DNA of 64,000 nt from Candidatus Latescibacterota bacterium (GTDB taxonomy: Bacteria; Latescibacterota; UBA2968): positions 5,408,001 to 5,472,000 of the forward strand of contig OZ240241.1 in assembly GCA_965198115.1 (NCBI GenBank), in the 5' to 3' direction. The notes below the pieces were generated by a model that did not search any database, had not been told where the DNA came from, and saw only the letters and a program-made list of their open reading frames with translations. The position numbers were made by a program, and so were the translations under genes. Below, in pieces: positions 48,863-64,000 of the stretch; within the stretch, counting starts at the first letter, position 1, and each line of letters opens with the position of its first letter.

Positions 48863-50250
48863 GGTGTTGTGCCTATCGTAGTTGAAACTTAGAGGGCTCC
48901 AAACTTACGTTGGGTAGACGTGTAGGAGCGTATACCCGTAAGAAAGGAGCCCAGATGGAGAAGCTATTTGTAGGCGATGGTGAAGTCAAGGTTGAGGGCG
49001 ATGTCATCGATTTGGAGACGCGTTTGTCGGTGATCCAGGCGTTGATCCCGTTGGGTCTGGAGGCAGTGGCAGACCTCCTCCAGCAGGAGGTCGAGCAGCT
49101 CGCAGGCGTTCGGTATGCGCGCAAAGGTTCGGAGCAGGCGCATCGTCGGTGGGGAAGCCAGAAGGGATCCGTGTATCTGATGGACCAGAAGCTCCCGTTA
49201 GACGTTCCCCGGGTGCGCGACGTCGAGGCCGACGCAGAGGTTTCCCTGGCTGCATACCGGGCTCTACAGACGCCCAAGAAGACGGACGAGGGGCTGTTGC
49301 TTCGTGTTCTCAAGGGGATCTCGTGCCGCAACTACAAGGCCTGTGCCGAATCGGTTCCAGAAGCGTTTGGTATCTCAGCGTCCTCCGTCTCGCGGCGGTT
49401 CATCAAAGCCACCGCGAAGAAGCTGAAGCAGTTCCAGGAGCGTCCCCTCGACGACTACGGCTTCGTGACCCTGTTCATTGACGGAAAGAGCTTTGCCGAC
49501 GAAGAGATCGTGATCGCTCTGGGGGTCACGATGGACGGCCAGAAGATCCCCCTGGGCTTCGTCGAATCGGCGACGGAGAACGAACGGATCTGCCGCCAGC
49601 TGATCCAGGACCTCATCCGGAGAGGCCTGTGCTACGACCAGGGCCTTCTCGTTGTGCTTGACGGCTCAAAGGGACTCCGCAGTGCTGTCACCAAAGCCCT
49701 CAAAGGGTATGTGCGCGTGCATCGCTGTCAGTGGCACAAGCGCGAGAATGTCGTCAGCTATCTCCCGGAGAGGGAACGTCCAAGAGTTCGACGGAAGCTC
49801 CAGAAAGCCTATGACTGCGACACCTACGAGGAGGCAAAGGCCGCACTCGAATCACTTAAACCCGAACTGAAGCTGATGAATCAGTCTGCCGTAACGAGCC
49901 TCGAGGAAGGCCTGGAGGAAACCCTGACCCTCCACCGGCTGGGTATGCTCCCATTCCTGAAACGAAGCTTCCGAACCACCAACTGCATCGAAGCCCTCAA
50001 CAGCAGGACCGGCGAGCTCACTCGGAAGGTCAGACGCTGGAACAACTCTCCCCAGAGACACAGATGGGTGGCTGCCGCACTCCTCGACATCGAACCTCGC
50101 CTGCGACGCGTGAGCGGATACAAACATCTTCCCCTACTCAGGCAAGCACTGAACAAAGATCTGAATCTCGACAACGAACAGAATGCTCAAAAGAGAGCCT
50201 GACCAAACTACGGGGCCCGATGAGTTTTCAACTGACTATGGGACTTGACC
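48863..50250 (+). mobile_element. IS256-family element (1388 bp), 8-bp TSD GAACGCAG
   Basis: TSD at 48855-48862 and 50251-50258; imperfect IRs GGTGTTGTGCCTATCGTAGTTGAAA / GGTCAAGTCCCATAGTCAGTTGAAA. Confidence 0.93.
48955..50202 (+). CDS. IS256 (mutator-type) transposase
   Basis: LDVPRVRD, LFIDGK, VLDGSKGL, RCQWHK, RTTNCIEALN. Confidence 0.93.
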   Translation: MEKLFVGDGEVKVEGDVIDLETRLSVIQALIPLGLEAVADLLQQEVEQLAGVRYARKGSEQAHRRWGSQKGSVYLMDQKLPLDVPRVRDVEADAEVSLAAYRALQTPKKTDEGLLLRVLKGISCRNYKACAESVPEAFGISASSVSRRFIKATAKKLKQFQERPLDDYGFVTLFIDGKSFADEEIVIALGVTMDGQKIPLGFVESATENERICRQLIQDLIRRGLCYDQGLLVVLDGSKGLRSAVTKALKGYVRVHRCQWHKRENVVSYLPERERPRVRRKLQKAYDCDTYEEAKAALESLKPELKLMNQSAVTSLEEGLEETLTLHRLGMLPFLKRSFRTTNCIEALNSRTGELTRKVRRWNNSPQRHRWVAAALLDIEPRLRRVSGYKHLPLLRQALNKDLNLDNEQNAQKRA

Positions 50251-50793
50251 GAACGCAGATCCAGAGGTACTCTTTTACACTGAAGGCGACGATGTCACTT
50301 ATCGGGATCTGGAACAGACCAAGCGAATCTACCGGCACGTGGCACAGTCGGCCTTCCGCTTCATCATCGAGTTTGAGGATCGGCCGGTTGGCGAATGCTG
50401 GCTACAAGAAATGAACCTGGCGCGGATCATCGATTCTCATCCCGATGCAGATTGCCGGCGTATCGATCTCATGATCGGCGAGAAGGATCTCTGGGGCCAC
50501 GGCATCGGTTCAAGAGTCATCGATCTGCTCAGCACGTTCGGCTTCAACCATCAGAACGCCGACTTGATTTTCGCGTGCGATGTTGCCGACTACAATCCCA
50601 GGAGCTACCGAGCCTTTGAAAAGAGTGGATTCGAACTCCATTCATCGAATCCACAGGAGCCCGGTGGCAAAGCCAAAGAGACCTATGACTTGATGTTGAA
50701 GCGTCCAGGTGATGAAGCTATCGACCCGGTCTGAGGACGAACTACCGATAATGTCGGTTTGCGTGACCACACTCCGACACTAAGCCCCGCCGC

Positions 50794-51816
50794 TCAACTC
50801 TTACCCTGCCACTCCTCGTAGATATCCGCAATCACATCGTCGATCGGGGCACGATGCGTCTCCACGTCGTTGACGCTGGTCTGTCTTGCGGCCTGATCCA
50901 GGAGCGCAGGGATCGACGTCTTCGCCGCATCAAACGTATACGCGTGTCGGTTACCTTCTGTTCGGACCCACTCCGCACCCTCCAACACCAGAGGGTCCTC
51001 CTTCGACGTCTCGAGCATCAGGTGTCTCCGGTCGCCGAACGATGATCGTAGCTGATCAAAATCACCGTCGAAGGCAATACGACCACCATCGATCATCACG
51101 ATACGCCCGGCAAGTTGCTCCAGGTCGTCCATGTCGTGGCTCGTCACCATCACCGTCACTCCCTTCTCCTGATTCAGCGTCTTGATGAAGTCCAGAATGT
51201 CTCGTTTGCCCAGCACGTCCACGCCGATCGTCGGTTCGTCCAGAAACAGAACTTCCGGCTCGTGAATCAGCATCATTCCCAGATCGGCCCGCATCTTCTG
51301 ACCGAGGCTGAGTTGGCGAGCAAGGGTATCGAAGAACGAGCCCAACCCCAGCACCTCCTTTAGGAAACCGAGATTGGCCTCATACCGATCGCGCGGAACA
51401 TCCCAGACAACGCGTGCCCACTCAAAGCTCGCTGACACCGGTTGGTCCCACCACAGCTCCGTCCGTTGCCCGAAGACCACACCGATTCGTTTGACATAAT
51501 TCACCCTGTCTTTCAACGGATCCATCCCAAGCGCGCGCACCGTTCCCGATGTTGGCGCCAACGCACTCGACAGCAGCTTTATCGTTGTGGACTTGCCGGC
51601 TCCATTCGGTCCGGCGTAGGCAACGACTTCCCCTTTCCTGATCGTCAGATCCACATCCTCTAGTGCCCGAATCTCACGAACCACAGGACGAAACAGATTT
51701 CTTAGAATATTTCGAGAATCCCCCGACCGCTGCCGCTGATAGAACGTCTTGCTCACCCGGGACAGACTAATTGCGATGCCCGCCTCCGGAGTATCGTTGA
51801 GATCCTGTGTGTTCAT
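50794..51816 (-). CDS. ABC transporter ATPase (NatA/DrrA-like)
   Basis: GPNGAGKSTT, VFGQRTELWWD, LSLGQKMR, LDEPTIGVD; start ATG 51816. Confidence 0.92.
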   Translation of the reverse strand: MNTQDLNDTPEAGIAISLSRVSKTFYQRQRSGDSRNILRNLFRPVVREIRALEDVDLTIRKGEVVAYAGPNGAGKSTTIKLLSSALAPTSGTVRALGMDPLKDRVNYVKRIGVVFGQRTELWWDQPVSASFEWARVVWDVPRDRYEANLGFLKEVLGLGSFFDTLARQLSLGQKMRADLGMMLIHEPEVLFLDEPTIGVDVLGKRDILDFIKTLNQEKGVTVMVTSHDMDDLEQLAGRIVMIDGGRIAFDGDFDQLRSSFGDRRHLMLETSKEDPLVLEGAEWVRTEGNRHAYTFDAAKTSIPALLDQAARQTSVNDVETHRAPIDDVIADIYEEWQGKS

Positions 51817-52630
51817 AGTGTCTGAGTCCTTTTTGGAATGCCAACCACGCAACCAGGCTAGCAACAGTGGCAATGAGAGGGAGTATCCATAACGAGGTCG
51901 AGCGCATACCCAACAGAACCTGACTCGGAGACCAGGCGACAAAGCCCACGGGAATCACTGTGAGCAGCGTGTTCATCAACAGAGGACTGAGCCCGTCCAG
52001 AGGAAAGGACTTGAGCTGAAACACGAGTCTCGTCGCCGAACTGCTGATCTCTTCGGCCCCCACAGGTGACCAGAAGGCCAGGCTGCCCCAGAGATAGGAA
52101 AGAGCCAGGACAACTGCGCACGAGGAGAACAAGAGACATCCGAACCCCAGCCACCATCCGAACGTCAGAGGCAAGTTCAGCTGAAGGACCGCCCAGGCCG
52201 TGATGCCAACTCCCGTGAAGAGTGAAAGGCTGCCGGAAAAGGGCATGAAGCCCTCCGTGAGCAGCACCATCCAGATTGGTTGGGGTTGGATCAGTGTGTG
52301 GTCGAATTGGCCTCGTCCGATCCGTCGACTGATTTCGAGCGTGTTGTTGGAGAAACCCACGGACAGGAAACCGCGCACGAGGGCCGCGTAGCCAAGCATG
52401 AAAACGATCTGCTCCCGGCTCCAAACCCCGATGCCATCGAATCGTTCCGCCAGGAGGAACACAGCCGCAACGCCGGAAAGATTCAGCAGGACGTCCGTAA
52501 CGACATTGATCAGGCAGAACGTGATGTCCCTTGTCATCCACATCAGATCCATATAGGCCTGGACCCGCCAACGACGGACCAACTTCAGAATGGTACGCCC
52601 TGAGTGAATACCGCCTGTCTCATCCGCCAT
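51767..52630 (-). CDS. ABC-2 family (DUF990-type) permease
   Basis: IGVWSREQIVF, GQFDHTLIQP, YSGGG C-terminus. Confidence 0.88.
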   Translation of the reverse strand: MADETGGIHSGRTILKLVRRWRVQAYMDLMWMTRDITFCLINVVTDVLLNLSGVAAVFLLAERFDGIGVWSREQIVFMLGYAALVRGFLSVGFSNNTLEISRRIGRGQFDHTLIQPQPIWMVLLTEGFMPFSGSLSLFTGVGITAWAVLQLNLPLTFGWWLGFGCLLFSSCAVVLALSYLWGSLAFWSPVGAEEISSSATRLVFQLKSFPLDGLSPLLMNTLLTVIPVGFVAWSPSQVLLGMRSTSLWILPLIATVASLVAWLAFQKGLRHYEHTGSQRYSGGGHRN

Positions 52631-53420
52631 GGGACGCCAACCTTTCTCGATTGTGTCGCCAGAGGATGTGTGCAGCTGGCCAGAGTACGACGGTCCACCA
52701 GACCTGCAGACCGATCAGAAACCCCGGATCGCCCGTACCCGTATAAATCCGCAAGGGCGCCGACGCCAGAGAAGCAAAAGGCAATAGCCCCAGGACCTCA
52801 CCGAGACTCCACGGCCACATTACGAGTGGAATAACCGCCCCGGATGCGAGCAGGCTCACCGCATCTCTGATCATCATCAACGGGTGTATACTCTGTTCGA
52901 GATAGACCATCAGGGCCGCATAGAGCACATCGAGGGCAGCGCCGACCGAAACGCCAAGCATCATGCTCGCGATGAACCAGACCGAAGCTGCGGACGAAGC
53001 CGGGGTGACTCTGACCCCGAGAAACGGAGCCATCAGCAGCAGCGGAAGAGAATGAAGAACGAGCCCGGGAACCCAGTCTCCGATCATCTCGGCAATGAAC
53101 TGACCATAAATGCCGATCGGCCGCAGCAGCCTGTTCACGATGATCCCCTCCCAAAGCGTGTCGCTGAGGGCCGTACGGATCGTCATCTGATTCGCGAAGA
53201 CTTCCGCGATCAGGGTATAGGTCATCACGGCGTCCAACGACATCCCAGAAATCACCGTTCTGTTTGCGAAGACGGAACGCCAAAGAGAAAGAAGAATGAC
53301 GACCCGTAGAACTCTGAGCATGAACCTTGCGGCCAAACCCCACCGATTATCGTGGAATGATCCGGACGAGACGATCCCGGCAGTCTTCCAGTACTTGTGG
53401 ATTGTGTTTCCCTGTAGCAT
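52620..53420 (-). CDS. ABC-2 family (DUF990-type) permease
   Basis: GIIVNRLLRP, ASGAVIPL, LLPFA, SHGG; start ATG 53420 with RBS AAGGA. Confidence 0.88.
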   Translation of the reverse strand: MLQGNTIHKYWKTAGIVSSGSFHDNRWGLAARFMLRVLRVVILLSLWRSVFANRTVISGMSLDAVMTYTLIAEVFANQMTIRTALSDTLWEGIIVNRLLRPIGIYGQFIAEMIGDWVPGLVLHSLPLLLMAPFLGVRVTPASSAASVWFIASMMLGVSVGAALDVLYAALMVYLEQSIHPLMMIRDAVSLLASGAVIPLVMWPWSLGEVLGLLPFASLASAPLRIYTGTGDPGFLIGLQVWWTVVLWPAAHILWRHNRERLASHGG

Positions 53421-53457
53421 CTGAATTGCATCCTTACGTGTCGAATGAAGTGGACAC

Positions 53458-53783
53458 AAAAAAACCACAGACCAATGGCCTGTGGGCAGCGGGGATACAG
53501 ACGCCGGAGGGTGATCCGGCCGAATGTCATAAAAGACTGTAATTACGACCTTTAGATCTTCCCCCTAAAAACGGAATGGACATACGTATCCCCTTGGAAG
53601 TCCAATGCATCTGCTTTTACCAGGATCCCGCGGTGTGCGAAACAGGATGACGCAAAAGACCCCACGATCCTTTCTTCGAATCGTTGGTCCTTCTCGAGTG
53701 TGTCTGTTGGGTAGCGTTCAACCATGCATCATCCTCTGGGCAGAAGCTTTCTAACCATATGATGTGACATCTCTACAGTCAAG
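53458..53783 (-). promoter_or_regulatory. Promoter plus attenuator-like leader with uORFs and terminators
   Basis: TTGACT-17-TATGGT (53783-53755); uORFs 53725-53552 and 53583-53527; terminator CCACAGGCC-att-GGTCTGTGG-T7 (53485-53458). Confidence 0.65.
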
Positions 53784-53857
53784 TTTGTGACAACCGATGC
53801 GGAGCTCCCATTGGCGGACTCTCCGGATCAGCCGGCCATCTTTGTTCACCTGCTCTG

Positions 53858-54305
53858 CTACTCGCACCGCAGCGCCTCAACTGGATTCGAGCTCGCTGCC
53901 CGGATCGCGTGGAAGCTGACTACCAGCAGGGCTAGCACGAACGCCCCAACGATGCCGACAAGATAGGGGACAGGGCCTTGGTTTGTCCTGTAGGCGAAGC
54001 CCTGGAGCCACTTCTCCATAAACCAGTAGGCAACGGGCAGCGCAACGACACTGGCGATCAGGACCCCACGCATCAGCTGACTCGAGATAAGCCGACAGAT
54101 ACTCGCCTCGGACGCACCGAGGGCTTTGCGGATTCCGATCTCTTTCGTTTTGCTCCTGACCAGGTAAGCGGCAAGACCGAGCAGACCCAGGCCTGCAATG
54201 AAGATTGCCAGGGCGGAAAACACGAAGAGACTTCTGGCAAACCTCCTCTCCTGCTGATAGAGTTCTGCCAGATTCTCGTCCACAAAGGAATAGCTTGCGG
54301 ATTAG
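53858..54305 (-). pseudogene. Orphan 3' fragment of a MacB/FtsX-type permease
   Basis: SYSFVDENLAELY...KTKEIGIRKALGAS...ASSNPVEALRCE; no 5' part present. Confidence 0.85.
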
Positions 54306-54577
54306 ATTCCCCACGGGCGGGAGCCCTCGACAGAAAAGAGAAAGCCACCGTCTGATCTCAGACGGCGGCTCCTGGATAACTCCGCTGGCTACAATTACAA
54401 ATGGGTTCAGCAAGATTTCTCACTGTGGCAATCTTGAGAAAAATCGCTTACAGACACCTGCAGGATTGCCCGGAACTTTACTCGTTGTATTTGCTAAAGA
54501 TATGAAGAAAGGGGGCCAGGAAATCCGGCCCCCTCTTTCAAGAAGGTACGAAGGCCGCCCCAGAAACGCCAACAGAA

Positions 54578-55214
54578 GTCATGACCTCCGGCAAAGCCGG
54601 AGGCTTGAAAACTTGTGAACCGCTCAAAGCGGTTGGAAACCAAGCGCCACCTAAAGGTGGCGATTACCTGAAAATGTTGAGCTGGTCGAGACGCCGGTCC
54701 TCCCGCTCCTGGTTCTGGATATACTCCCGAACCGTCTGTTCATCCTTGCCAACGGTGGAGACCCAGTAGCCTCTTGCCCAGAAATGCTGCCCGGTGAAGT
54801 TCGACCTGCGTCCCAGATAGTTCCGAGCAATGTGAATCGCACTCTTTCCTTTGATGAACCCTACCGTCTGAGCTACTGAGTGCTTCGGCGGGATCGAAAT
54901 CAGCGTGTGCACATGGTCGGATCGCAGGTGACCCTCTTCCACACGGCATTCCTTCTGTGCGGCCAGATCCCGAATCACCTCGCCCAGATAGCGACGAATT
55001 TCACCATACAACACTTTTCTACGATACTTCCGAACCCAAACAACGTCATACTTGCACTCCCAAACCGTGTGACGTAGACTCCTTACGTTGTTCATTAGAG
55101 AGCCTTCCTTCCGTGTGCTTTGAGCGGTCCACGGCAAGGGAGGCTCTTACATATTTCTGGAACTGTCAAACTCTGGGAGTCTCCCCGGCAGAGCCGGGGG
55201 CTTACCAAGGTTTA
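54578..55214 (-). mobile_element. IS200/IS605-family element (tnpA only), copy A, 637 bp
   Basis: LE hairpin CCCCCGG-ctctg-CCGGGG, RE hairpin CCTCCGGC-ttt-GCCGGAGG, RE ends in TGAC. Confidence 0.92.
54664..55095 (-). CDS. tnpA: IS200/IS605 Y1 transposase
   Basis: KYRRKVL, HUH motif DHVH, KGKS, FWARGY, catalytic Tyr in REYIQNQ. Confidence 0.93.
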   Translation of the reverse strand: MNNVRSLRHTVWECKYDVVWVRKYRRKVLYGEIRRYLGEVIRDLAAQKECRVEEGHLRSDHVHTLISIPPKHSVAQTVGFIKGKSAIHIARNYLGRRSNFTGQHFWARGYWVSTVGKDEQTVREYIQNQEREDRRLDQLNIFR

Positions 55215-55852
55215 GTCATGACCTCCGGCAAAGCCGGAGGCTTGAAAACTTGTGAACCGCTCAAAGCGGTTGGAAACCAAGCGCCACCTAAAGGTGGCGA
55301 TTACCTGAAAATGTTGAGCTGGTCGAGACGCCGGTCCTCCCGCTCCTGGTTCTGGATATACTCCCGAACCGTCTGTTCATCCTTGCCAACGGTGGAGACC
55401 CAGTAGCCTCTTGCCCAGAAATGCTGCCCGGTGAAGTTCGACCTGCGTCCCAGATAGTTCCGAGCAATGTGAATCGCACTCTTTCCTTTGATGAACCCTA
55501 CCGTCTGAGCTACTGAGTGCTTCGGCGGGATCGAAATCAGCATGTGCACATGGTCGGATCGCAGGTGACCCTCTTCCACACGGCATTCCTTCTGTGCGGC
55601 CAGATCCCGAATCACCTCGCCCAGATAGCGACGAATTTCACCATACAACACTTTTCTACGATACTTCCGAACCCAAACAACGTCATACTTGCTCCTCCCA
55701 TACCGTGTGACGTAGACTCCTTACGTTGTTCATTAGAGAGCCTTCCTTCCGTGTGCTTTGAGCGGTCCACGGCAAGGGAGGCTCTTACATATTTCTGGAA
55801 CTGTCAAACTCTGGGAGTCTCCCCGGCAGAGCCGGGGGCTTACCAAGGTTTA
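55215..55852 (-). mobile_element. IS200/IS605 copy B, 638 bp, head-to-tail with copy A
   Basis: Near-identical direct repeat; inserted 3' of TAAC on the minus strand. Confidence 0.92.
55301..55733 (-). pseudogene. tnpA: tnpA with +1 frameshift near 55693
   Basis: gctcctcccatacc versus gcactcccaaacc in copy A. Confidence 0.85.
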
Positions 55853-57690
55853 GTTACACAGAGGAAGACGGTATCTGGCCTGGCATGGTGGAACACCTCT
55901 GGCTGGAACGGGACGGACGCTTGGGCTACACGACGAGGGCGGGCCTGACAGGCAGTTTGACAACGGACCAGGACGCCCCCGAGACCAGCTTCCAAGTCGC
56001 TCCGACTGACGTTGGTTCCTCTGGTAACATCCAGTTGACGTGGTCCGGTCGCGACCTGTGGGACGTCACCCCGCAAGAGAAGGTCCGTTACCAGCACCGT
56101 CTGGACGATGGCGACTGGTCACCCTGGACGACCCAGGATGGTGCCACCCTCACATCTCTATCGCCGGGAAAACACCGCATTGAATTACGGGCTGCCGATC
56201 ACGAACTCAACGTGGACCCGACACCAGCCGTCCACGCCTTCGTGGTCGAATCCCCTTGGTGGCGCAATCCCATCGTGGCGGGTCCTGGCCTGCTGCTCGT
56301 CGTCGCTGTGCTCTTCCAGTCCGTCCGTGTTGTGCAGGCCAAGCGGAGGCTACAGGACTCGGTGGAGGCCCTATCAGCGGCGAACCACGATCTGTTCGAA
56401 GTAAACCAGGCTCTCCAGCGTGACAGAGCAGTCGAGCGGATTCGCGCAGAAGTTCAGTCGATGGATGAGGCCGAGGATTTCGAGAAAGTCCTCGCGTTAC
56501 TGACGACGGACCTCAAGGAAGTCGGCCTGGCCTTCCAGGCGTGTGAAATCGACGTTCTGGAGGAGCCTGTCGAACATCCCACAATGCGATTTTTTGAGGA
56601 AAGAGGGTTCCGTTATACAACCTACACATTAAACCCAGACGGCCACGTGGCTTCTGAAACGTTCGCTGTAGCTGCACCATTTCCCGCAGTGAATCGGCAG
56701 ACGCTCGAACGGTTCATCGCAGGAGAACCGTGGCAGGGCACGAGTGAAGGCCAGGCGATCGTGGAAGTGCCCGCAGGTGGCTATGGCCGCCTGCGTCTTA
56801 CAGCCGCCAATCGCGACAATTTTTCGGAGGACGAAGTAGCCACGCTTCGCGAATTTGCGGGCGCCGTTTCCCTGGGCTATGCACGCTATCTGGACATCCG
56901 TGAAATCCAGGTTCAAACAGAGCGGAAATCGGCGATGCTTGCCAGCATGTCTCACGAGCTCCGCACACCGATGAATGCAATAAAGGGCTTCACGAATCTG
57001 GTGCTTGGTCGACGCTCCGAGAACCTCAACGATCGGCAACGTGAGAACCTCAGCAAAGTGTCCCAAGCCTCTGACCATCTCCTCGCGATGATCAACGATC
57101 TTCTCGACCTGTCGAAGATCGAGGCGGGCAGGATGGACGTGAACCCCGAACGGTTCGACGTAACGGAACTGGTCACGTCGGCGTGCGACACGGTCAGCCC
57201 CCTGATACAGGAAGGCGTGGAGCTGCGGCAGGACGTGCCCGACGACATCGGCGAGGCAAACACCGACAAGGCGCGGCTCCAGCAGATGGTCATCAACCTC
57301 CTGAGCAACGCCATCAAGTTCACTGACAGCGGAACCATTACCGTCACGGCAAGCAGGGGGCAGGGAGCAGGGAGCACGGGGGACCAATCGGGCGCATCGC
57401 GCGTCTCTCCGACTCACGTCTCACGACTCACGTCTCACGACCTTGTGATCTCTGTCTCTGATACGGGCAAAGGCATTCCCGCGGAGGAGCTCCCAACCAT
57501 CTTCGACGAATACCGTCAGGCCGAAGGGTCGGAGAGCAGCGTCCAAAAGGGCACGGGGCTGAGGCTGTCCATAACCAAGAAGTTCGCTGAGTTGCTGGGC
57601 GGGACGATCAGCGTGGAGAGTGAGGTGGGGAAGGGCAGTACGTTCACGGTGCGGGTGCCGGTAGAGCATGAAGCGAAGGAAGCTGAGTAG
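55853..57690 (+). pseudogene. 5'-truncated beta-propeller/Y_Y_Y sensor histidine kinase
   Basis: Begins mid-blade at the IS boundary (YTEEDGIWPGMVEHLWLERDG); Y_Y_Y, TM, GAF-like, SHELRTPM, HATPase with G2 box GTGLRL. Confidence 0.85.
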
Positions 57691-57763
57691 AAGTCTTGCC
57701 CCAGGTAGGAGCCGTGGAACAGGTTGATGGATTGGGTCGGACAAACCACATCAGGAGGAGAGC

Positions 57764-58183
57764 ATGAGTGCCTTTGAGAACGCCAAGAGATTTTTCGATG
57801 CCTGTGAAGCCCCTGAAGGATGGGAAGGATGCAAGCCCTACGTTGTCGCGGGTGCGACTTTCACCGCGCAAAGCGAGCCCCTGGCTGACGTCGATACGGT
57901 TGAAGCTTATTGCGAGTGGATGGCTGGATTTGGCAAGGTAACAGCACCCGGAGCAACCTACGACCTGCATGCGTCAGCTTACGACGACGCGAGAAAAACA
58001 GCTGTCTTCTTCGCAACCTACCACGCCAAGCATACCGGCGAAGGCGGTCCCGTCCCTCCGACCAACAAGGAAACGAACTCGCACTATGTCTACATATTGA
58101 AGATGAACGAAGAGGACAAAGTCCAGCAGATGACCAAAATCTGGAATGCTCCGTGGGCGATGAAGGAACTCGGGTGGATGTGA
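57764..58183 (+). CDS. SnoaL/NTF2-like (polyketide cyclase-like) protein
   Basis: RBS AGGAGGAG; HTGEGGPVPPT, KIWNA...LGW. Confidence 0.8.
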   Translation: MSAFENAKRFFDACEAPEGWEGCKPYVVAGATFTAQSEPLADVDTVEAYCEWMAGFGKVTAPGATYDLHASAYDDARKTAVFFATYHAKHTGEGGPVPPTNKETNSHYVYILKMNEEDKVQQMTKIWNAPWAMKELGWM

Positions 58184-58220
58184 TTGGTCGTCAGGCATCC
58201 GGGGACCCAGTGACGTTTGG

Positions 58221-58311
58221 TTGTTGGGCGGGACGATAGGCGTGGAGAGCGAGGTAGGCAGGCAGCACGTTTACGGTGGGGGTGCCGGTCGAGTACCATA
58301 CGGAAATCTGA
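58221..58311 (+). pseudogene. Histidine-kinase 3'-end remnant 1
   Basis: LLGGTIGVESEVG/GSTFTVGVPVEYHTEI*, with a 2-nt deletion. Confidence 0.85.
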
Positions 58312-58336
58312 CGGAACGCAGCAGGAGATATGACCC

Positions 58337-59556
58337 ATGGCACAGTACGATGTGATTACAGTGGGTGGCGGTCTTGCTGGGTCTGCGTTGGCCACGGCTC
58401 TCGCAAGAGATGGCATGAGGGTGCTGGTGCTTGAACGGACGGAGGTCTTCCAGGATCGGGTACGGGGCGAGCAGGTGCATCCTTGGGGGGTCGTTGAGCT
58501 CAAGGAGCTGGGTCTTTACGACCTCCTTCTCGGATCGTGTGGACACGAGCTTCCGTGGCTCGATATGTTCCTCTGGCCCGAACAGATAGCCCACCGGGAC
58601 CTGAGGATTACGACTCCTCAGCAGGCACCCGAGTTTTCGTTCTACCATCCTGCCACTCGCGCAGGCCGCCGAGGAGGCAGGGGCCGAGGTACGACGTGGT
58701 GTGCGTGTTACAGGCGTCGAACCGGGTTCGAACCCGCGCGTCCTGCTGGAAGCAAACGGGAACGGGTCCGAATCCATCGAAGCCCGAATCGTTGTCGGGT
58801 GCGATGGGCGACGCTCCACCGTGCGCACATGGGCCGGTTTCGAGATGCATCAAGATCCTCTGACTCAGTGTATTGCGGGCCTACTTTTCCAGGGTACGGG
58901 TGCTCCCGCAGAGGACACCTCCCACATTGTTATCAATCCACGGCTGGGTCGAGTGACCGCGCTTTTTCCGCAGAGAGATGGTCAGCTGCGTGCCTATCTC
59001 ATCTGGCAGAATGCCGAGGAAATGCGACTTCAGGGTGAAACGGACATCCCTCGCTTTATTGACGAATCTGTGAAAACCGGAGCTCCCGCCGAATGCTATG
59101 AAGGGGCATCTCCGGCCGGGCCCCTGGCCACCTTCGACGCTGTTGATACGTGGGTACCCCCATCCCTATCGTGATGGTGTTGCACTCATCGGTGATGCAG
59201 CCGCTGCCAACGATCCTTCATACGGTGAAGGCCTTTCGCTAACCGTCCGTGACGTCCGGGTCCTCAGAGACAGTCTATTGCGGGAAAACGACTGGGAGAA
59301 AGCAGGCCACGACTACGCATCCGAACACGACCGTCATTACCGCGTCATCCACGAGGTAACACAGCTGCTGACTCAGCTCTTTTTGCAGCGAGGTCCTGCT
59401 GCAGACGAGCGGCGTGCCCGGGCTTTCCCTCTTATCGCACAAGACGAGACTCGCGTTCCCGATCACATCGTGGTCCCGACCTGCCTTTTGACGATTCCGT
59501 GCGTAGCCGATTCTTTGGCGAAGACTGATAATCAAGAAGAAGGATGTTTCGTCTGA
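58337..59556 (+). pseudogene. FAD-dependent monooxygenase with several frameshifts
   Basis: VGGGLAG, VGCDGRRS, LIGDAA...P..GEG spread over three frames. Confidence 0.88.
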
Positions 59557-59566
59557 TCTTTTTCGC

Positions 59567-59595
59567 GACGATCAGCGTGGAGAGCGAGGTGGGCA
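59567..59595 (+). pseudogene. Histidine-kinase 3'-end remnant 2
   Basis: GACGATCAGCGTGGAGAGCGAGGTGGG, near-identical to 57603-57629. Confidence 0.8.
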
Positions 59596-59962
59596 ATGGC
59601 CCGAATTCTAGTTATCGATGACGAAACGACGGTCCGTGAGATGCTGACCGACGTCCTCGAAGAGGAGGGGCACGAGGTGACGTGCGCCGAAGACGGGCGT
59701 CGAAGGAATCGCCCAATACAGGAAGGCGCTGCACGATCTCGTCATTACGGACGTTTTTATGCCGGAAAAGTCGGGACTGGAGACAATTCTCGACCTGAAA
59801 GATGAATTTCCTCAGATCAAGATCATAGCGATGTCCGGATGGGACGCGAAGGATGCTGTCGACGTGTTGGCGATGTCGGAAGAGTGGGGTGCGGACGGTG
59901 TGCTGTCAAAGCCGTTCAAGGCCGAGGAAGTGACGAGCAAGATAAGGGCTCTGTTGGGATGA
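59596..59962 (+). pseudogene. Single-domain response regulator, +1 frameshift near 59697
   Basis: ILVIDDE; DLVITDVFMPEKSG...IIAMSG...SKPF in the second frame. Confidence 0.85.
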
Positions 59963-59965
59963 CCA

Positions 59966-60094
59966 GGGCTCTGGGATTGAAAAAGAAGAGAATCGCGGAA
60001 CTGATGGTCGGGACCATCGAAAAGCGAGGGGGGAAAGGGCAGCACGTTTACGGTGCGGGTGCCGGTGGCGTATCGAGAGCGGAAGCGGACCTGA
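59966..60094 (+). pseudogene. Histidine-kinase 3'-end remnant 3
   Basis: Degenerate IAELMVGTIE../GKGSTFTVRVPVAYRERKRT*. Confidence 0.8.
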
Positions 60095-60126
60095 GCGCTT
60101 AAGACACGGTCGCGTGACAAACAGTA

Positions 60127-60161
60127 GCCCCTCTCTCACTCGAGGAAGGGGCCTCTTTTTT
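60127..60161 (+). terminator. Intrinsic terminator hit by ISL3 copy 4
   Basis: GCCCCT...AGGGGC followed by a T6 tract abutting the IRL. Confidence 0.65.
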
Positions 60162-61581
60162 GGCTCTATCCGGGTTTCTCAACGGTGAAACTATAGAATG
60201 ACAAGGTCATAGATCGTTCCCTACGCTTGGTTGTGTGTGTAGGACAATCAAAGCGAAGGGGGTGCGACCTATGACCGGGAGCAGATTACTATCGAAACTG
60301 CTGAGATTCAAGGGGTTCCGTGTTGTCAGCTGGTGGTTTGAGGGGAGAAGCTGCTTCGTCATCGCCGTAAAGCCACATAAGAATGGTTGTTGTTGTCCGG
60401 AGTGCGGCCGTCGAGGTAAAATCGTCCGCACAATGCCCCATCCGCGTCGGTGGCGTGACATTCCGGTGTGCGGGTGGAGGGTCTGGCTTCTCTACCATCC
60501 TCGGGAGATTCGGTGTCCTACCCACGGTCGTGTGGTCGAGGAGATTCCGTGGGCGGAGCGGTTCTCTCGGGTGACGTATCGCTTCGAGTATGCCATGCTG
60601 CGCTACTGCCAGACCATGACGCAGAAGGCGGCGTCCGAGTTACTGCGCATCTCTGCCTCGACGCTGTCGGATCTCCTTCACCGATCCATCACGCGGCTTC
60701 GTGAAGGTCATCGTATCCGAGGGCTCAAAACCATCGGGATCGACGAGATCTCCTACGCCAAGCGTCACAGGTACGCCACGCTCGTTTACGATCTGGACCG
60801 CTCCTGCGTGGTGTGGGTTGGCCGCGGCAGGGCGCGTAAAACGATCGATCGGTTCTTCACAGAGGCTCTCAGTCCCTACCGGAGATCCAAGATCGAGTGG
60901 GCCTGCTGCGACATGAGCGAAGCTTACATCGGAGCCATCCAGGAACACTGTCCGAATGCCAAGCTGGTCCTCGATCGCTTTCACATCGTCAAGGCTCTCA
61001 ATGCCGCCGTTGACGAGGTCCGTAAGGACCAGTGGCGTAAAGCTGCCCCGGATGAGCGCAAAGCCATGAAGGGCCTCCGATGGCTCCTCTACCGGCACTC
61101 AGCGACACGCTCCAGAGGGGATACTCGGACACTCAAAGCACTGGAGAAGGCGAACTACCGAATCTATAGAGCCTGGAGACTCAAGGACGAGTTCGAGCAG
61201 TTCTGGGAATACAAAGCGCCCTGGGCTGCCGAACGCTTCCTGAAATGCTGGACGACGTCCGCACTCAGAAGTCGACTTGAACCCCTGCGAAAGTTCGTCA
61301 GGACCCTGCGACAGCACTTCTTCGGCGTCCTCGCATTCGTGAACACGCGACTTACAAACGCCATCGCCGAAGGCCTCAACCGAATCGTCCAAATCGTCAA
61401 GAACCGAGCCAGCGGATTCCGCACACTCGACGCATTCAACGATATGATCTTCCTTACCGTCGGAGACCTAAACATCCCTGAGCAGATTCCGAAGAGGTTC
61501 CGCACACGCTAACCGCGCCCCCATGCCAGGAACCACGGCACCTTCACCCACTTCATCTCGTTGAGAGATCCGGATATAGCC
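60162..61581 (+). mobile_element. ISL3 copy 4 (1420 bp), no target duplication
   Basis: Same IRs; flanks TCTTTTTT and ATTAAGTG differ. Confidence 0.95.
60235..61512 (+). CDS. ISL3 transposase, intact
   Basis: 425-aa ORF, near-identical to the other copies. Confidence 0.95.
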   Translation: MCRTIKAKGVRPMTGSRLLSKLLRFKGFRVVSWWFEGRSCFVIAVKPHKNGCCCPECGRRGKIVRTMPHPRRWRDIPVCGWRVWLLYHPREIRCPTHGRVVEEIPWAERFSRVTYRFEYAMLRYCQTMTQKAASELLRISASTLSDLLHRSITRLREGHRIRGLKTIGIDEISYAKRHRYATLVYDLDRSCVVWVGRGRARKTIDRFFTEALSPYRRSKIEWACCDMSEAYIGAIQEHCPNAKLVLDRFHIVKALNAAVDEVRKDQWRKAAPDERKAMKGLRWLLYRHSATRSRGDTRTLKALEKANYRIYRAWRLKDEFEQFWEYKAPWAAERFLKCWTTSALRSRLEPLRKFVRTLRQHFFGVLAFVNTRLTNAIAEGLNRIVQIVKNRASGFRTLDAFNDMIFLTVGDLNIPEQIPKRFRTR

Positions 61582-61582
61582 A

Positions 61583-61744
61583 TTAAGTGACGAAAGCGTC
61601 CGTGTTCGCCACAACGCCGCCTTGACACTCATCAAGATCGGCACCCCGGCCGTCGCAGCCCGAAACGAGCTCACACAGGCGCTCGAAGACGAAAACCGCT
61701 ACGTCCGTGCCCTCTCCCGCCTTGCTCTCGGCCGAACGAAGTAG
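61583..61744 (+). pseudogene. 3' fragment of a HEAT-repeat gene cut at the IS boundary
   Basis: LSDESVRVRHNAALTLIKIG...ALEDENRYVRALSRLAL*. Confidence 0.8.
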
Positions 61745-61772
61745 TGCCCAACCCAATCCTCAACTCTCGATC

Positions 61773-62642
61773 TTAAATGACCTGGTCAAGCGCCTTCATA
61801 TACCCGATCGTCCAGCTCAACCCGGCCGCCCGGTCTCCGGCAATGGAAGGAAAGTGTTCCGGATAGAGCTGACCCTTGAAATCGATCTCCTTCAACGCCC
61901 GAAACGTCTCCACCATATCCACTTCCCCCGTCCCGAACGCCACTTCCAGGTAGCCCAACCCTTCCAACCGTTCGCGTACCTCCGCGTCGATCGGATCGCT
62001 CACGCGCGTCACGATATCTCGAATGTGGACCATGAACGTCCGGTCGCCGAATGCCCGCACGGCGGCGCCCAGATCGTCCCCCGCTAACTCCGACTTGCCC
62101 TGGCAGAAAATCACCCCATTCGCCGGGCTGTCGACCTCCTCGAACAGGCGCTCCATCGTCTCCAGGTTCCAAAGGATTCGGTCCGGCCGGTGAAAGTGAT
62201 GGGTTGACACCTTGACGCCCTGTTCCTCCGCCACATCCGTCAACTCTCGATAGTATTCGACGAGCCCCGCCCACAGACATTCCCGCTCCGGCTGACCCTC
62301 GGGCACGACTTCGTTGCTCGAATACAGGTGCAAATAGGGAATCCCTGCTTTGCCCATCGCTCTCACGATGCCCGTCATCACCGCCATCTCCTGACTACGT
62401 GCATCTGTATCCCGAAGCGCAGCCAAACTCGTCCGCGGTGGTCGCAAGGAAGAAAGCGTCACACCTCCTGAGCGATACTTCTCCGCCACACCTACCAAGT
62501 CATCAGCATCCGGTACCTCACCCCCATCCTCCGCCAACTCCGACGCCGAGTGAATGATGTAGTGGACATCCGAATCCGTGCAGAAAGCGATATTCTTCTC
62601 GTAATCCGTCCCGAATGGTGCAAACACGCCGATGTCGAGCAT
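61773..62642 (-). CDS. Sugar phosphate isomerase/UxuA-like TIM-barrel protein
   Basis: NGVIFCQG, VHIRD, FGTGEVD, LYPEH. Confidence 0.82.
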   Translation of the reverse strand: MLDIGVFAPFGTDYEKNIAFCTDSDVHYIIHSASELAEDGGEVPDADDLVGVAEKYRSGGVTLSSLRPPRTSLAALRDTDARSQEMAVMTGIVRAMGKAGIPYLHLYSSNEVVPEGQPERECLWAGLVEYYRELTDVAEEQGVKVSTHHFHRPDRILWNLETMERLFEEVDSPANGVIFCQGKSELAGDDLGAAVRAFGDRTFMVHIRDIVTRVSDPIDAEVRERLEGLGYLEVAFGTGEVDMVETFRALKEIDFKGQLYPEHFPSIAGDRAAGLSWTIGYMKALDQVI

Positions 62643-62677
62643 AACAGCCCTCCAATTCTCGATTCTCGATCCTCAGT

Positions 62678-63580
62678 TTAGGCAAGTCGCGCCACTGCCT
62701 CGATGTGGGCCGGCGACAAGCCGCAACACCCCCCGATCCCGTTGATCCCCTCCTCGATCCACTGTTTTCCGTAGTCCGCCAGACTCTCAGGTGTCAACGA
62801 ATCGTCGAATTGCCAGTTCGGCATCTTGAACGTCCCCGAGTCCGGGTACGCGGAAGTTGGGCCGTCAAATGACTTCCGGATGGTCTCGATTGCGTCCGAG
62901 ACGATCGGACTACCCGTGTGCATCACACCGACCGCGGCGACACCTGGGCGATTCGCCACCTGAAGGATCTCCTCGAACGGAATGTCCTGTCCCTGCGCGA
63001 ACGAAAGGAGCGATCCTCCCTCACTCTGTCGCGCGGACAGGCCCGCCCAAACCGGGAGGCCTGTCTCCAGAGCGGCCGTCACGGCCAGCTCGATCCGCTG
63101 GGGCAGATACATCATTTCCAGCAGAATCAGATCGACGCCTTCCTGCGACATAATCGATGCCATCTCACCGAACGTATCGGTCAACTCCTGGACCGAAGCT
63201 GATGGCATGCTTCCGTAGCCTTCCGTCCAATGCGACAGCGACCCCGCCACGGCTACACCCTCCACCCCTGCCCGGTCCCGCGCCCGCTGAACGGTCTCGA
63301 TCGCAGCCCTGTTCACATCGTAGACTCGATCCCAGTATCCCGCCGCCTCCAGCATCGGTCGAGACGACGAAAACGTGTTCGCCGTAACGATGCGGGCCCC
63401 TGCCGCGATATAATCGACGTGAATCTGCTCCAGCACATCCGACTGTTCGAGATTCGCCGTCGCGCTCCAGGACTGCTTGTCCATCGTCACGCCCCGACGC
63501 TCCAGCTCGGTGCCGATGCCGGCGTCGATCACGACCAACTCGTTAGATGCGATGCGTTTTTCTATGGCTTCGTAGGACAT
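62678..63580 (-). CDS. Homocysteine S-methyltransferase family protein
   Basis: IDAGIGTELERRG, HVDYIAAGA, YPDSG, GGCCG. Confidence 0.9.
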   Translation of the reverse strand: MSYEAIEKRIASNELVVIDAGIGTELERRGVTMDKQSWSATANLEQSDVLEQIHVDYIAAGARIVTANTFSSSRPMLEAAGYWDRVYDVNRAAIETVQRARDRAGVEGVAVAGSLSHWTEGYGSMPSASVQELTDTFGEMASIMSQEGVDLILLEMMYLPQRIELAVTAALETGLPVWAGLSARQSEGGSLLSFAQGQDIPFEEILQVANRPGVAAVGVMHTGSPIVSDAIETIRKSFDGPTSAYPDSGTFKMPNWQFDDSLTPESLADYGKQWIEEGINGIGGCCGLSPAHIEAVARLA

Positions 63581-63588
63581 GGCTTATC

Positions 63589-63642
63589 CGGTGTTCGGTG
63601 TTCGGTGTTCGGTGTTCGGTGTTCGGTGTTCGGTGTTCGGTG
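63589..63642. repeat. Perfect heptamer VNTR (CGGTGTT)7.7
   Basis: Seven exact copies plus CGGTG, 8 nt from the start codon at 63580. Confidence 0.95.
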
Positions 63643-63708
63643 AAAAGAGGAAAGCGAAAGAGCAAGCGCGGGAGCAAATGTTCTATGCTCTATCTTCAAT
63701 ACTCAATG

Positions 63709-64000
63709 TCAAATTTCTTCAAACGGATACATAGGCCGACGCCGGTAGACGTAATCGAACGTCCGCATATCCGCGGCCGTCGCTCCCGACGTGTTCACTC
63801 GAATCAGCTTCGTGCACACGGGCTCATAGGCCGCCACCGGTGCGTGAACGCCCTTCGCCACGAGGATCTGAAAATCGGCGGGATCCAGCCCGATGCTCGT
63901 CACCACACCGAGGCTCACCGGCACGGTACGTCGTAATGTCAGACTGATCGTCAACCCCGTATCTGTCACCACAACGGCTGTAGGCCCCATATCGAAATGC
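63709..64000 (-). CDS. MlrC/M81 metallopeptidase, 3' end, partial
   Basis: MGPTAVV, GLDP, ILVAKGVHAP, RRRPMYPFE. Confidence 0.85.
   Translation of the reverse strand, partial: HFDMGPTAVVVTDTGLTISLTLRRTVPVSLGVVTSIGLDPADFQILVAKGVHAPVAAYEPVCTKLIRVNTSGATAADMRTFDYVYRRRPMYPFEEI

What the first reader, a model, noticed from the sequence alone, without database searches (positions are those of the whole stretch)
57550..60161. Cargo-gene array punctuated by repeated histidine-kinase 3' ends
Seen: the kinase ends in LLGGTISVESEVGKGSTFTVRVPV (57592-57663). The same DNA recurs three more times on the same strand as decayed non-coding remnants (58221-58311, 59567-59595, 59966-60094). The order is HK tail - SnoaL gene - tail - FAD monooxygenase - tail - receiver protein - tail - terminator. 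Remnant 2 supplies the GAGG RBS of the receiver gene. The remnants differ from each other, so they look like tails of different paralogues rather than one tandem duplication. Inference: the conserved 3' end of an expanded kinase family may act as a recombination landing pad. Genes lying downstream of paralogous kinases would be captured and stacked, like orphan Rhs/CDI C-terminal cassettes or an integrase-free integron. I do not know of such an array being described for kinase tails.
Basis: partly seen in the sequence, partly recalled or inferred. Interest (0 to 1): 0.8.

Follow-up and report, generated by a model that had tools for sequence, protein, structure and literature searches.

The report
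Stacked kinase gene ends mark insertions
Three broken-off copies of a sensor-kinase gene's end sit between unrelated genes here, part of about 50 such leftover kinase ends and starts in this genome, and they are likely scars left when ordinary recombination used this multi-copy kinase family as a docking point for new DNA, a known kind of process not found described for kinases.

Summary
Observation confirmed and wider than reported. The kinase end recurs three times (74-89% identical), and short-read contigs of one run match most of the array without a difference. Genome-wide, one expanded propeller-sensor kinase family has 33 orphan 3' ends and 17 orphan 5' starts. Tails lie mostly downstream of lead kinases, starts upstream. 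They rarely occur together, which argues against simple decay of whole tandem kinases. One lead kinase switches to a foreign-type end where the orphan tail behind it begins. Two junctions with both parents in hand sit on 10- and 8-base microhomologies. Orphan tails recur in six related genomes and five metagenome contigs. Best reading: one homologous crossover in the kinase plus one microhomology join (C-terminal displacement, as proposed for rhs and Vibrio T6SS arrays), then deletion. The window's array is decaying: the kinase is split and two of three cargo genes are frameshifted. No integrase lies nearby and no reverse transcriptase was found. I found no paper on kinase arrays (4 searches), but this scan has reported the same scar type at other genes in other genomes, including the mirror class of starts. 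New variant of a known kind.

The parts
54664..55651 (-). Two tandem IS200-type transposase copies that cut off the kinase's 5' half
   Evidence: Y1_Tnp for the first copy; 637-bp spaced direct repeats; the missing 5' half matches G000 4807375-4808760 next to another copy
55885..57690 (+). Lead sensor histidine kinase, 3' half only; G2-box GLGL reads GLRL
   Evidence: HisKA E 1.4e-19, HATPase_c E 2.5e-27; paralogue alignment; other contigs read G at 57562
57550..57690 (+). Conserved kinase 3' end (the anchor sequence that recurs)
57764..58183 (+). Cargo 1: intact 139-aa SnoaL-like ORF
   Evidence: Pfam SnoaL_2 E 0.0012, below cut-off; 40-47% identical relatives in 5 of 131 other genomes, none with a kinase tail in the 1.7-3.4 kb held
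58220..58311 (+). Remnant R1, 37 nt after the cargo-1 stop, with a 2-base deletion at 58260 and its own C-terminal codons and stop
58337..59528 (+). Cargo 2: FAD-dependent monooxygenase pseudogene (at least three frames)
   Evidence: FAD_binding_3 in two separate frames; sequence confirmed by a short-read contig; not found in 131 other genomes of the class with one fragment as query
59564..59596 (+). Remnant R2, cut at both ends, running straight into the receiver ATG with GAGG 6 nt upstream
   Evidence: receiver alleles in 3 other runs diverge from the window at 59596
59596..59962 (+). Cargo 3: single-domain response regulator pseudogene (1-base insertion near 59695)
   Evidence: Response_reg in two frames; other alleles lack the base; the G001 orthologue has no kinase within 15 kb
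59963..60094 (+). Remnant R3, joined 2-4 nt after the receiver stop
   Evidence: receiver alleles in 4 of 4 runs laid leave the window sequence at 59965-59970
60126..60161 (+). Terminator-like hairpin with T-run closing the array
   Evidence: fold -19.2 kcal/mol, z -2.95; not called on + by the consensus scan
60162..61582 (+). ISL3 element after the array (bystander)
   Evidence: DDE_Tnp_ISL3; inverted ends 60161-60184 and 61559-61582

Best explanation
The three repeats are cut-off 3' ends of paralogous sensor-kinase genes, likely left behind when incoming DNA recombined into a resident kinase by homology, brought a new gene end plus neighbouring genes, and rejoined the old gene through a few matching bases. 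Shown: 33 orphan tails and 17 orphan starts of one kinase family; their opposite placement around lead kinases; one mosaic lead kinase; microhomology at two junctions; recurrence in relatives. Inferred: each event is one homologous crossover plus one illegitimate join (homology-facilitated illegitimate recombination). A join inside the kinase's last part pushes the old tail and older cargo downstream, so the newest cargo is first; the mirror event leaves an old start upstream. Also inferred: long duplicated pieces are lost by pop-out or trimmed by deletion, which leaves short stubs tight against retained genes. The stubs are scars. They can serve again as homology for swapping blocks and can incidentally supply a ribosome-binding site. 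In the window the array is now mostly dead.
For: Polarity in the catalytic core: 27 orphan fragments reach the 3' end with starts from profile position 357 to 652. No isolated 5'-core fragment was found apart from one IS-split gene, and two loci have internal pieces (whole-genome scan). Placement within 50 kb of a same-strand lead kinase: tails 19 downstream / 6 upstream, starts 3 / 10, Fisher p 0.0045; 38 of 39 lie on the strand of the nearest lead kinase; only 2 of 17 starts have a tail within 600 bp. Mosaic: kinase G000 2418136 scores as the RVP-ending subtype up to position 615 (LLR +28.9) and as the other subtype after it (-20.9), best breakpoint 622; the RVP-type orphan about 125 bp behind it starts at 613-617; the five other RVP kinases tested show no switch. 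Junctions: L113 is 98.7% identical to G000 over 923 bp, then enters a tail in mid-gene across a 10-base shared word; the G030 start-cargo junction shares 8 bases. The gene behind orphan 2418010 follows a near-complete kinase core in L106. The same cargo start follows two different start subtypes at G000 2409423 and 4994400. Controls: of 3661 genes, 19 have 6 or more orphan 3'-end matches; 7 are this family and 12 appear by eye to end in IS or repeat sequence; 1 of 80 distant kinase loci shows a similar orphan (L146). Model in print for other genes: PMC5361080 and PMC2935791 (passages).
Against: No before/after pair of the same locus was found, so insertion is inferred. Microhomology also marks plain deletions. 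Deletion of kinase bodies is evident: start, middle and tail within about 430 bp at G000 2468756-2468323; start-cargo-tail in G030; internally deleted cores in G005 and G012. Full tandem kinases exist (G000 5.276-5.288 Mb; G070). One 70-kb cluster gives 11 of the tails and 9 of the starts, so the Fisher test overstates. 16 of 33 tails begin within 60 bp of a same-strand gene end (13% expected), which needs extra trimming or selection. The L107/L112 junction has no exact microhomology. Some stubs abut IS ends. ComEC is split over two frames in this assembly. The mosaic test rests on one gene.
Confidence: 0.6

Rival explanations
1. In-situ decay: each position held a whole tandem kinase with its own neighbour genes, and deletions removed the kinase bodies, leaving stubs.
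For: Tandem full kinases occur. Most lead kinases in G000 are split into two or more ORFs. One locus keeps start, middle and tail. Remnant lengths form a continuum up to near-complete cores. Microhomology fits deletion.
Against: Starts and tails almost never share a position (2 of 17) and sort to opposite sides of lead kinases. If ends were kept independently, about 31 tail-only, 15 start-only and 2 both would imply some 200 or more vanished kinases (my arithmetic). No sensor-domain remains were found inside the arrays. Short stubs can be near-pristine (L107: 97.6% over 83 bp to an intact end). It does not predict the mosaic breakpoint.
Confidence: 0.17
2. Circle shuffling: crossover between two tails pops out a tail-cargo circle, which re-enters any paralogous kinase by a single crossover (the model of Jackson et al. 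2009 for rhs). The stubs would then be working handles and the cargo a mobile pool.
For: Tails are 74-95% alike. The same cargo recurs near different stubs: a mechanosensitive-channel-helix gene in three G000 copies and in L107 and L112; a small basic ORF in L105 and G000 2981929; a cargo gene 98% identical between G000 and G030.
Against: It cannot create new junctions, and where the same cargo recurs its junction usually differs. Cargo duplicates within G000 are mostly 80-95% identical, not fresh copies. Most stubs are under 120 bp. No circular joint could be told from paralogue joins in the contigs laid.
Confidence: 0.13
3. An enzyme-driven system (site-specific recombinase, transposase acting on palindromes, or reverse transcriptase) inserts cassettes at the kinase ends.
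For: Cassettes are compact and end near stop codons. Two G069 inserts end at the same palindrome. G030 holds a start-cargo-tail unit in two copies between tRNA-Glu end repeats. Many IS200 copies are present.
Against: Stub 5' ends vary over about 300 bp, so there is no fixed crossover site. The nearest tyrosine-recombinase matches are about 206 and 391 kb from the array. No RVT_1 match in the genome. No Rfam match in window 50000-64000. The tail pattern is absent from viral contigs. Serine recombinases were not searched.
Confidence: 0.07
4. Assembly artefact or chance similarity.
For: Single-contig assembly with 5.1% contamination and many frameshifts.
Against: Short-read contigs reproduce the array, including R1, R2 and most of R3. 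The stubs differ from each other. Reversed-genome controls give nothing comparable. The pattern recurs in other genomes.
Confidence: 0.01

Closest known systems
C-terminal displacement at rhs loci (Jackson et al. 2009, PMC2935791; passages read) and orphan CDI/Rhs modules (Poole et al. 2011, PMC3150448; search listing only)
   Same: A lead gene followed by same-strand fragments of its conserved part, of variable length, each with following genes; homologous recombination proposed as the driver.
   Different: No toxin or immunity genes. The stub is the conserved enzyme end, not a variable tip. The cargo is unrelated metabolic and regulatory genes. About 16 dispersed paralogous loci take part, and a mirror class of displaced starts exists.
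Sequential displacement in Vibrio cholerae T6SS effector-immunity arrays by homology-facilitated illegitimate recombination (Kirchberger et al. 2017, PMC5361080; passages read)
   Same: An anchor crossover plus an illegitimate join adds new genes in front and shifts old 3' ends and genes back; no integrase known.
   Different: There retained immunity genes give a clear selective reason; here none is evident, and two of three cargo genes in the window are dead.
Integrons (defining features recalled; comparison also drawn in PMC5361080)
   Same: Compact, mostly same-strand cargo of one to three genes separated by related short sequences.
   Different: No integrase nearby, no fixed crossover point, and the spacers are pieces of a protein-coding gene rather than attC sites.
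PeSL cassettes of T4-type phages (Arbiol et al. 2010, PMC2839356; abstract and outline read)
   Same: Short dispersed homologous sequences between accessory genes that allow shuffling by recombination.
   Different: PeSLs are functional promoter-terminator units with demonstrated mini-circles; these stubs are gene fragments and no circles were shown.

Membership tests
C-terminal displacement arrays (rhs/CDI/T6SS type) | Lead gene followed by same-strand, variable-length fragments of its own family | tested here: met
C-terminal displacement arrays (rhs/CDI/T6SS type) | Lead gene carries an incoming end; the displaced end is the former one | tested here: inconclusive
   Met for one locus (G000 2418136); the five other RVP-type kinases tested, including the window's, show no subtype switch
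C-terminal displacement arrays (rhs/CDI/T6SS type) | Variable toxin tip with cognate immunity gene | tested here: not met
   Pfam of cargo: SnoaL/DUF4440, STAS, PhyH, mandelate racemase, hydrolases, methyltransferases, receiver. It works like such an array but is not a member
Homology-facilitated illegitimate recombination products | Short microhomology at the non-homologous join | tested here: met
   10 and 8 bases at two junctions, about 6 (one mismatch) and 3-5 at two more, none exact at a fifth
Homology-facilitated illegitimate recombination products | Gain of foreign DNA shown by a before/after pair, dependent on RecA and DNA uptake | not testable with these tools
   No syntenic strain pair found; DprA present, ComEC split over two frames
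Integron | Integron integrase beside the array | tested here: not met
   Nearest Phage_integrase matches about 206 and 391 kb away
Integron | Fixed recombination site between cassettes | tested here: not met
   Stub starts range over profile positions 357-652; no Rfam match in 50000-64000
tRNA-targeted integrative island | att duplication from a tRNA end flanking the cargo | tested here: not met
   No tRNA or att-like match near the window array; a tRNA-Glu-end repeat does flank the G030 unit, and the same island-end sequence follows some other G000 arrays
PeSL-like shuffling cassettes | Free mini-circles formed between repeats | not testable with these tools
   Only assembled contigs were available

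The most novel reading that the evidence does not exclude
An expanded sensor-kinase family works as a lineage-wide, integrase-free cassette network. Its conserved start and end are kept as short handles at a dozen or more loci and across families of the class, so that stub-flanked one-to-three-gene cassettes are captured, expressed from kinase-derived signals and swapped between loci and species by RecA alone, with free circles as intermediates.
Probability: 0.2. Interest if true: 0.8.

Novelty: new variant of a known kind. Interest (0 to 1): 0.5.

Why it matters
It extends C-terminal displacement from toxin loci to a signalling-gene family and shows it running in both directions. It suggests that a multi-copy gene family can seed accessory-gene islands without an integrase. 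The set of about 50 stubs, with parental alleles for several junctions, is a testable natural record of homology-facilitated illegitimate recombination, which is mostly known from laboratory transformation (as summarised in PMC5361080). It is also an annotation warning: the stubs yield short false 'histidine kinase' ORFs. The interest is limited because the mechanism class is in print, this scan has noted the same scar at many other genes, and nothing shows the stubs are maintained for a purpose.

Tried and rejected
Tandem duplication of one unit: the cargo is unrelated and the stubs are 78-88% alike. A non-coding RNA or known element: no Rfam match. Retro-copying, suggested by the fixed 3' and ragged 5' ends: no RVT_1 match in G000, and the mirror class of starts contradicts it. 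Phage carriage: 0 matches of the tail pattern in viral contigs (exact pattern only). Syntenic relatives of the window array: none among 30 relatives by DNA or 131 class genomes by SnoaL, FAD fragment and receiver queries; many of these genomes are incomplete. Circles or pop-out variants: the joints listed have short sides (39 letters or fewer) or foreign letters between and are best read as other paralogues; not used as evidence. No RNA holder was listed, so expression is unknown. The first control was swamped by IS ends and was redone with repeats masked. The profile held misaligned rows and was rebuilt (one family member lacking the motif left out). Metagenome hits L110 and L111 (full kinases of other families) and L112 (cut by the contig end) were dropped from the orphan count. 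The protein-atlas search gave only generic propeller sensors and no taxon. Papers: searches found nothing on kinase-end arrays; one search used a phylum name that was my guess and gave nothing relevant. The two original 2002 papers on homology-facilitated illegitimate recombination could not be read and are cited only through PMC5361080.
Full report
Observation. The window is G000:C1:5408001-5472000 of an 8.43-Mb single-contig genome. The kinase ORF at 55885-57690 has HisKA and HATPase_c domains. Its last 140 bases recur at 58220-58311, 59564-59600 and 59963-60094 on the same strand, at 82%, 89% and 74% local identity, with profile E-values of 1e-5 to 1e-13 against 1.7 for the best hit in the reversed genome. 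Between them lie a SnoaL-like ORF, an FAD monooxygenase gene and a receiver gene; a hairpin and an ISL3 follow. Short-read contigs of run X1, probably the source sample and so not an independent strain, match 55906-57370, 57516-58081 and 58144-60064 without a difference. The array and its frameshifts are therefore real. The FAD gene is in several frames. The receiver has one base too many relative to alleles in 3 of 4 other runs. The kinase begins right after two IS200-type copies; by comparison with a paralogue its 5' half lies at G000 4807375-4808760 on the other strand beside another copy.

The family. G000 holds about 16 genes of one kinase subfamily, with Reg_prop propeller sensor, Y_Y_Y, HisKA and HATPase_c domains (including an unbroken 1354-aa copy from G070). 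Most G000 copies are split into two or more ORFs; outside the window I could not check whether that is real or assembly error. A 699-base profile of the catalytic core, run over the whole genome, gave 27 orphan fragments that reach the 3' end, starting anywhere from position 357 to 652. One of them is only as strong as the best control hit (E 0.18 against 0.19) and rests on direct reading. No isolated 5'-core fragment was found except a gene split by an IS. Two loci have internal pieces, and two hits from other kinase families were set aside. Six weaker stubs from the tail profile and blastn bring the working set to 33. The largest stack has nine tails over 16 kb behind the kinase at 2418136; its cargo includes STAS, PhyH, mandelate racemases, a PQQ propeller, a lactamase-rhodanese, DUF4440, a dehydrogenase and a methyltransferase.

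A mirror class. The conserved 5' leader and start of the same family also occurs as orphan stubs, 17 in my set, with a fixed 5' side and a ragged 3' side, usually followed by an unrelated same-strand gene; two of them end at IS ends. Within 50 kb of a same-strand lead kinase, tails are 19 downstream and 6 upstream (8 with none), starts 3 downstream and 10 upstream (4 with none); Fisher p 0.0045, or 0.027 at 25 kb. One cluster supplies 11 tails and 9 starts, so these p-values overstate. 38 of 39 stubs near a lead kinase share its strand. Only 2 of 17 starts have a tail within 600 bp. 16 of 33 tails begin within 60 bp and 24 of 33 within 160 bp of a same-strand gene end, against 13% and 26% for random intergenic points (genes from my own simple finder, one distance corrected by hand).

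Controls. With repeats masked, 19 of 3661 genes of 750 bp or more have six or more orphan 3'-end matches. Seven are this family; the other twelve appear from their ends to run into IS or repeat sequence, which I judged by eye. Among 80 distant kinase loci from other taxa (flanks up to 6 kb, some shorter), three had a match of their own end outside another kinase core. On reading, one (L146) looks like a true orphan tail and two do not.

Relatives. The tail query matched 60 of 168 genomes of the phylum, mostly as ordinary kinases. Orphan tails away from contig ends were seen in G001, G005, G012, G030, G069 and G070, three families of the class. These loci were picked by the tail, so they cannot test polarity. 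Of 9 metagenome contigs with the exact tail pattern, five carry orphan tails (L105, L107 with two, L108, L109, L113), one a headless near-complete core (L106), one is cut by its end and two are full kinases of other families. Orphan starts occur in G001 and G030. No syntenic copy of the window's array was found.

Mechanistic evidence. (a) The lead kinase at 2418136 belongs to the RVP-ending subtype up to profile position about 616 and to the other subtype from about 624. The RVP-type orphan about 125 bp behind it begins at 613-617. This is what an insertion of a foreign end at that point predicts. It is one case; five other RVP kinases, including the window's, show no switch. (b) L113 is 98.7% identical to G000 1439589-1440511 and then enters a tail in mid-gene across a 10-base word shared by both parents. 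The G030 start-cargo junction shares 8 bases. Weaker overlaps lie at G000 2397290 and at R3, and none exact at L107/L112. (c) The gene behind orphan 2418010 follows a near-complete core in L106. (d) Receiver alleles in other runs leave the window sequence at 59596 and at 59965-59970, the R2 and R3 boundaries, and the G001 orthologue has no kinase within 15 kb. The cargo thus exists without the stubs. (e) Only 2 of 19 array stubs, plus one tie, match their own lead kinase best. (f) The same cargo start follows two different start subtypes.

Against. No before/after strain pair was found. Microhomology fits deletions equally. Kinase bodies clearly are deleted at some loci, whole tandem kinases exist, and some stubs abut IS ends. 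Decay therefore contributes. It does not easily give starts and tails on opposite sides, their near-exclusion, near-pristine short stubs or the mosaic breakpoint. No tyrosine recombinase lies within about 200 kb, no reverse transcriptase was found, DprA is present and ComEC is split over two frames. Whether the process still runs in this genome is open.

Comparison. The architecture works like C-terminal displacement at rhs loci (PMC2935791, passages) and the Vibrio T6SS arrays explained by homology-facilitated illegitimate recombination (PMC5361080, passages). It has no toxin-immunity pairs and is not a member of those systems, nor an integron. PeSL cassettes (PMC2839356, abstract) are the nearest model for the shuffling rival. 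Four searches of the open literature found no kinase-end arrays; subscription journals and supplements were not covered. Earlier notes of this scan describe the same scar type at other genes in other genomes, one with both classes genome-wide; I did not check them, and my reading was on record before the first look-up.

Verdict. A real feature, best read as recombination scars of gene gain anchored on an expanded kinase family, later trimmed by deletion. New variant of a known kind; interest 0.5.

Noticed in passing
L065:8876-10697 and L066:9155-10976 (G030): A 1.8-kb unit (kinase start stub, BNR-repeat gene, kinase tail, terminator) in two 99.8% identical copies between tRNA-Glu end repeats, with no integrase inside: a possible non-autonomous mini-island. 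Its gene is 98% identical to two G000 copies although the genomes are in different families.
   Followed up: partly
window:54577-55856 and G000:C1:4806935-4808760: The window's kinase appears to be split by an IS200-linked rearrangement; its 5' half lies about 656 kb away on the other strand.
   Followed up: partly
L017:9344-14421 (G000 481343-486423): A sensor of the same family whose output is a SpoIIE phosphatase domain, followed directly by a kinase tail stub: a possible output-domain swap by the same process.
   Followed up: no
G000:C1:2870558-2872531: An array of 20 tRNA genes in 2 kb on one strand.
   Followed up: no
G000 whole genome: Very heavy IS load: 13% of the genome is masked by 25-mers present 15 or more times, with some 250 matches to one IS end; many genes are frameshifted, including comEC.
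   Followed up: partly
L111:75-1853: A kinase of another family (DctB-like by my recall) ends in frame with this family's tail near the contig end; either an assembly chimera at the shared G2 box or a real end swap.
   Followed up: partly
L146:7500-7900: In a Clostridia MAG, a permease-like start is fused to a kinase tail downstream of a full kinase: a similar orphan in an unrelated lineage.
   Followed up: no
window:57355-57445: Low-complexity short-repeat insertion inside the kinase ATPase domain; paralogues carry different insertions at the same spot.
   Followed up: no
L101:2230-2400 and L103:6198-6350 (G069): Two kinases share an end plus a palindrome-rich spacer of about 100 bp that stops at the same palindrome and is joined to tail stubs at different points; there is no cargo gene between.
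   Followed up: partly
window:63589-63642: Tandem 7-base repeat between two genes.
   Followed up: no
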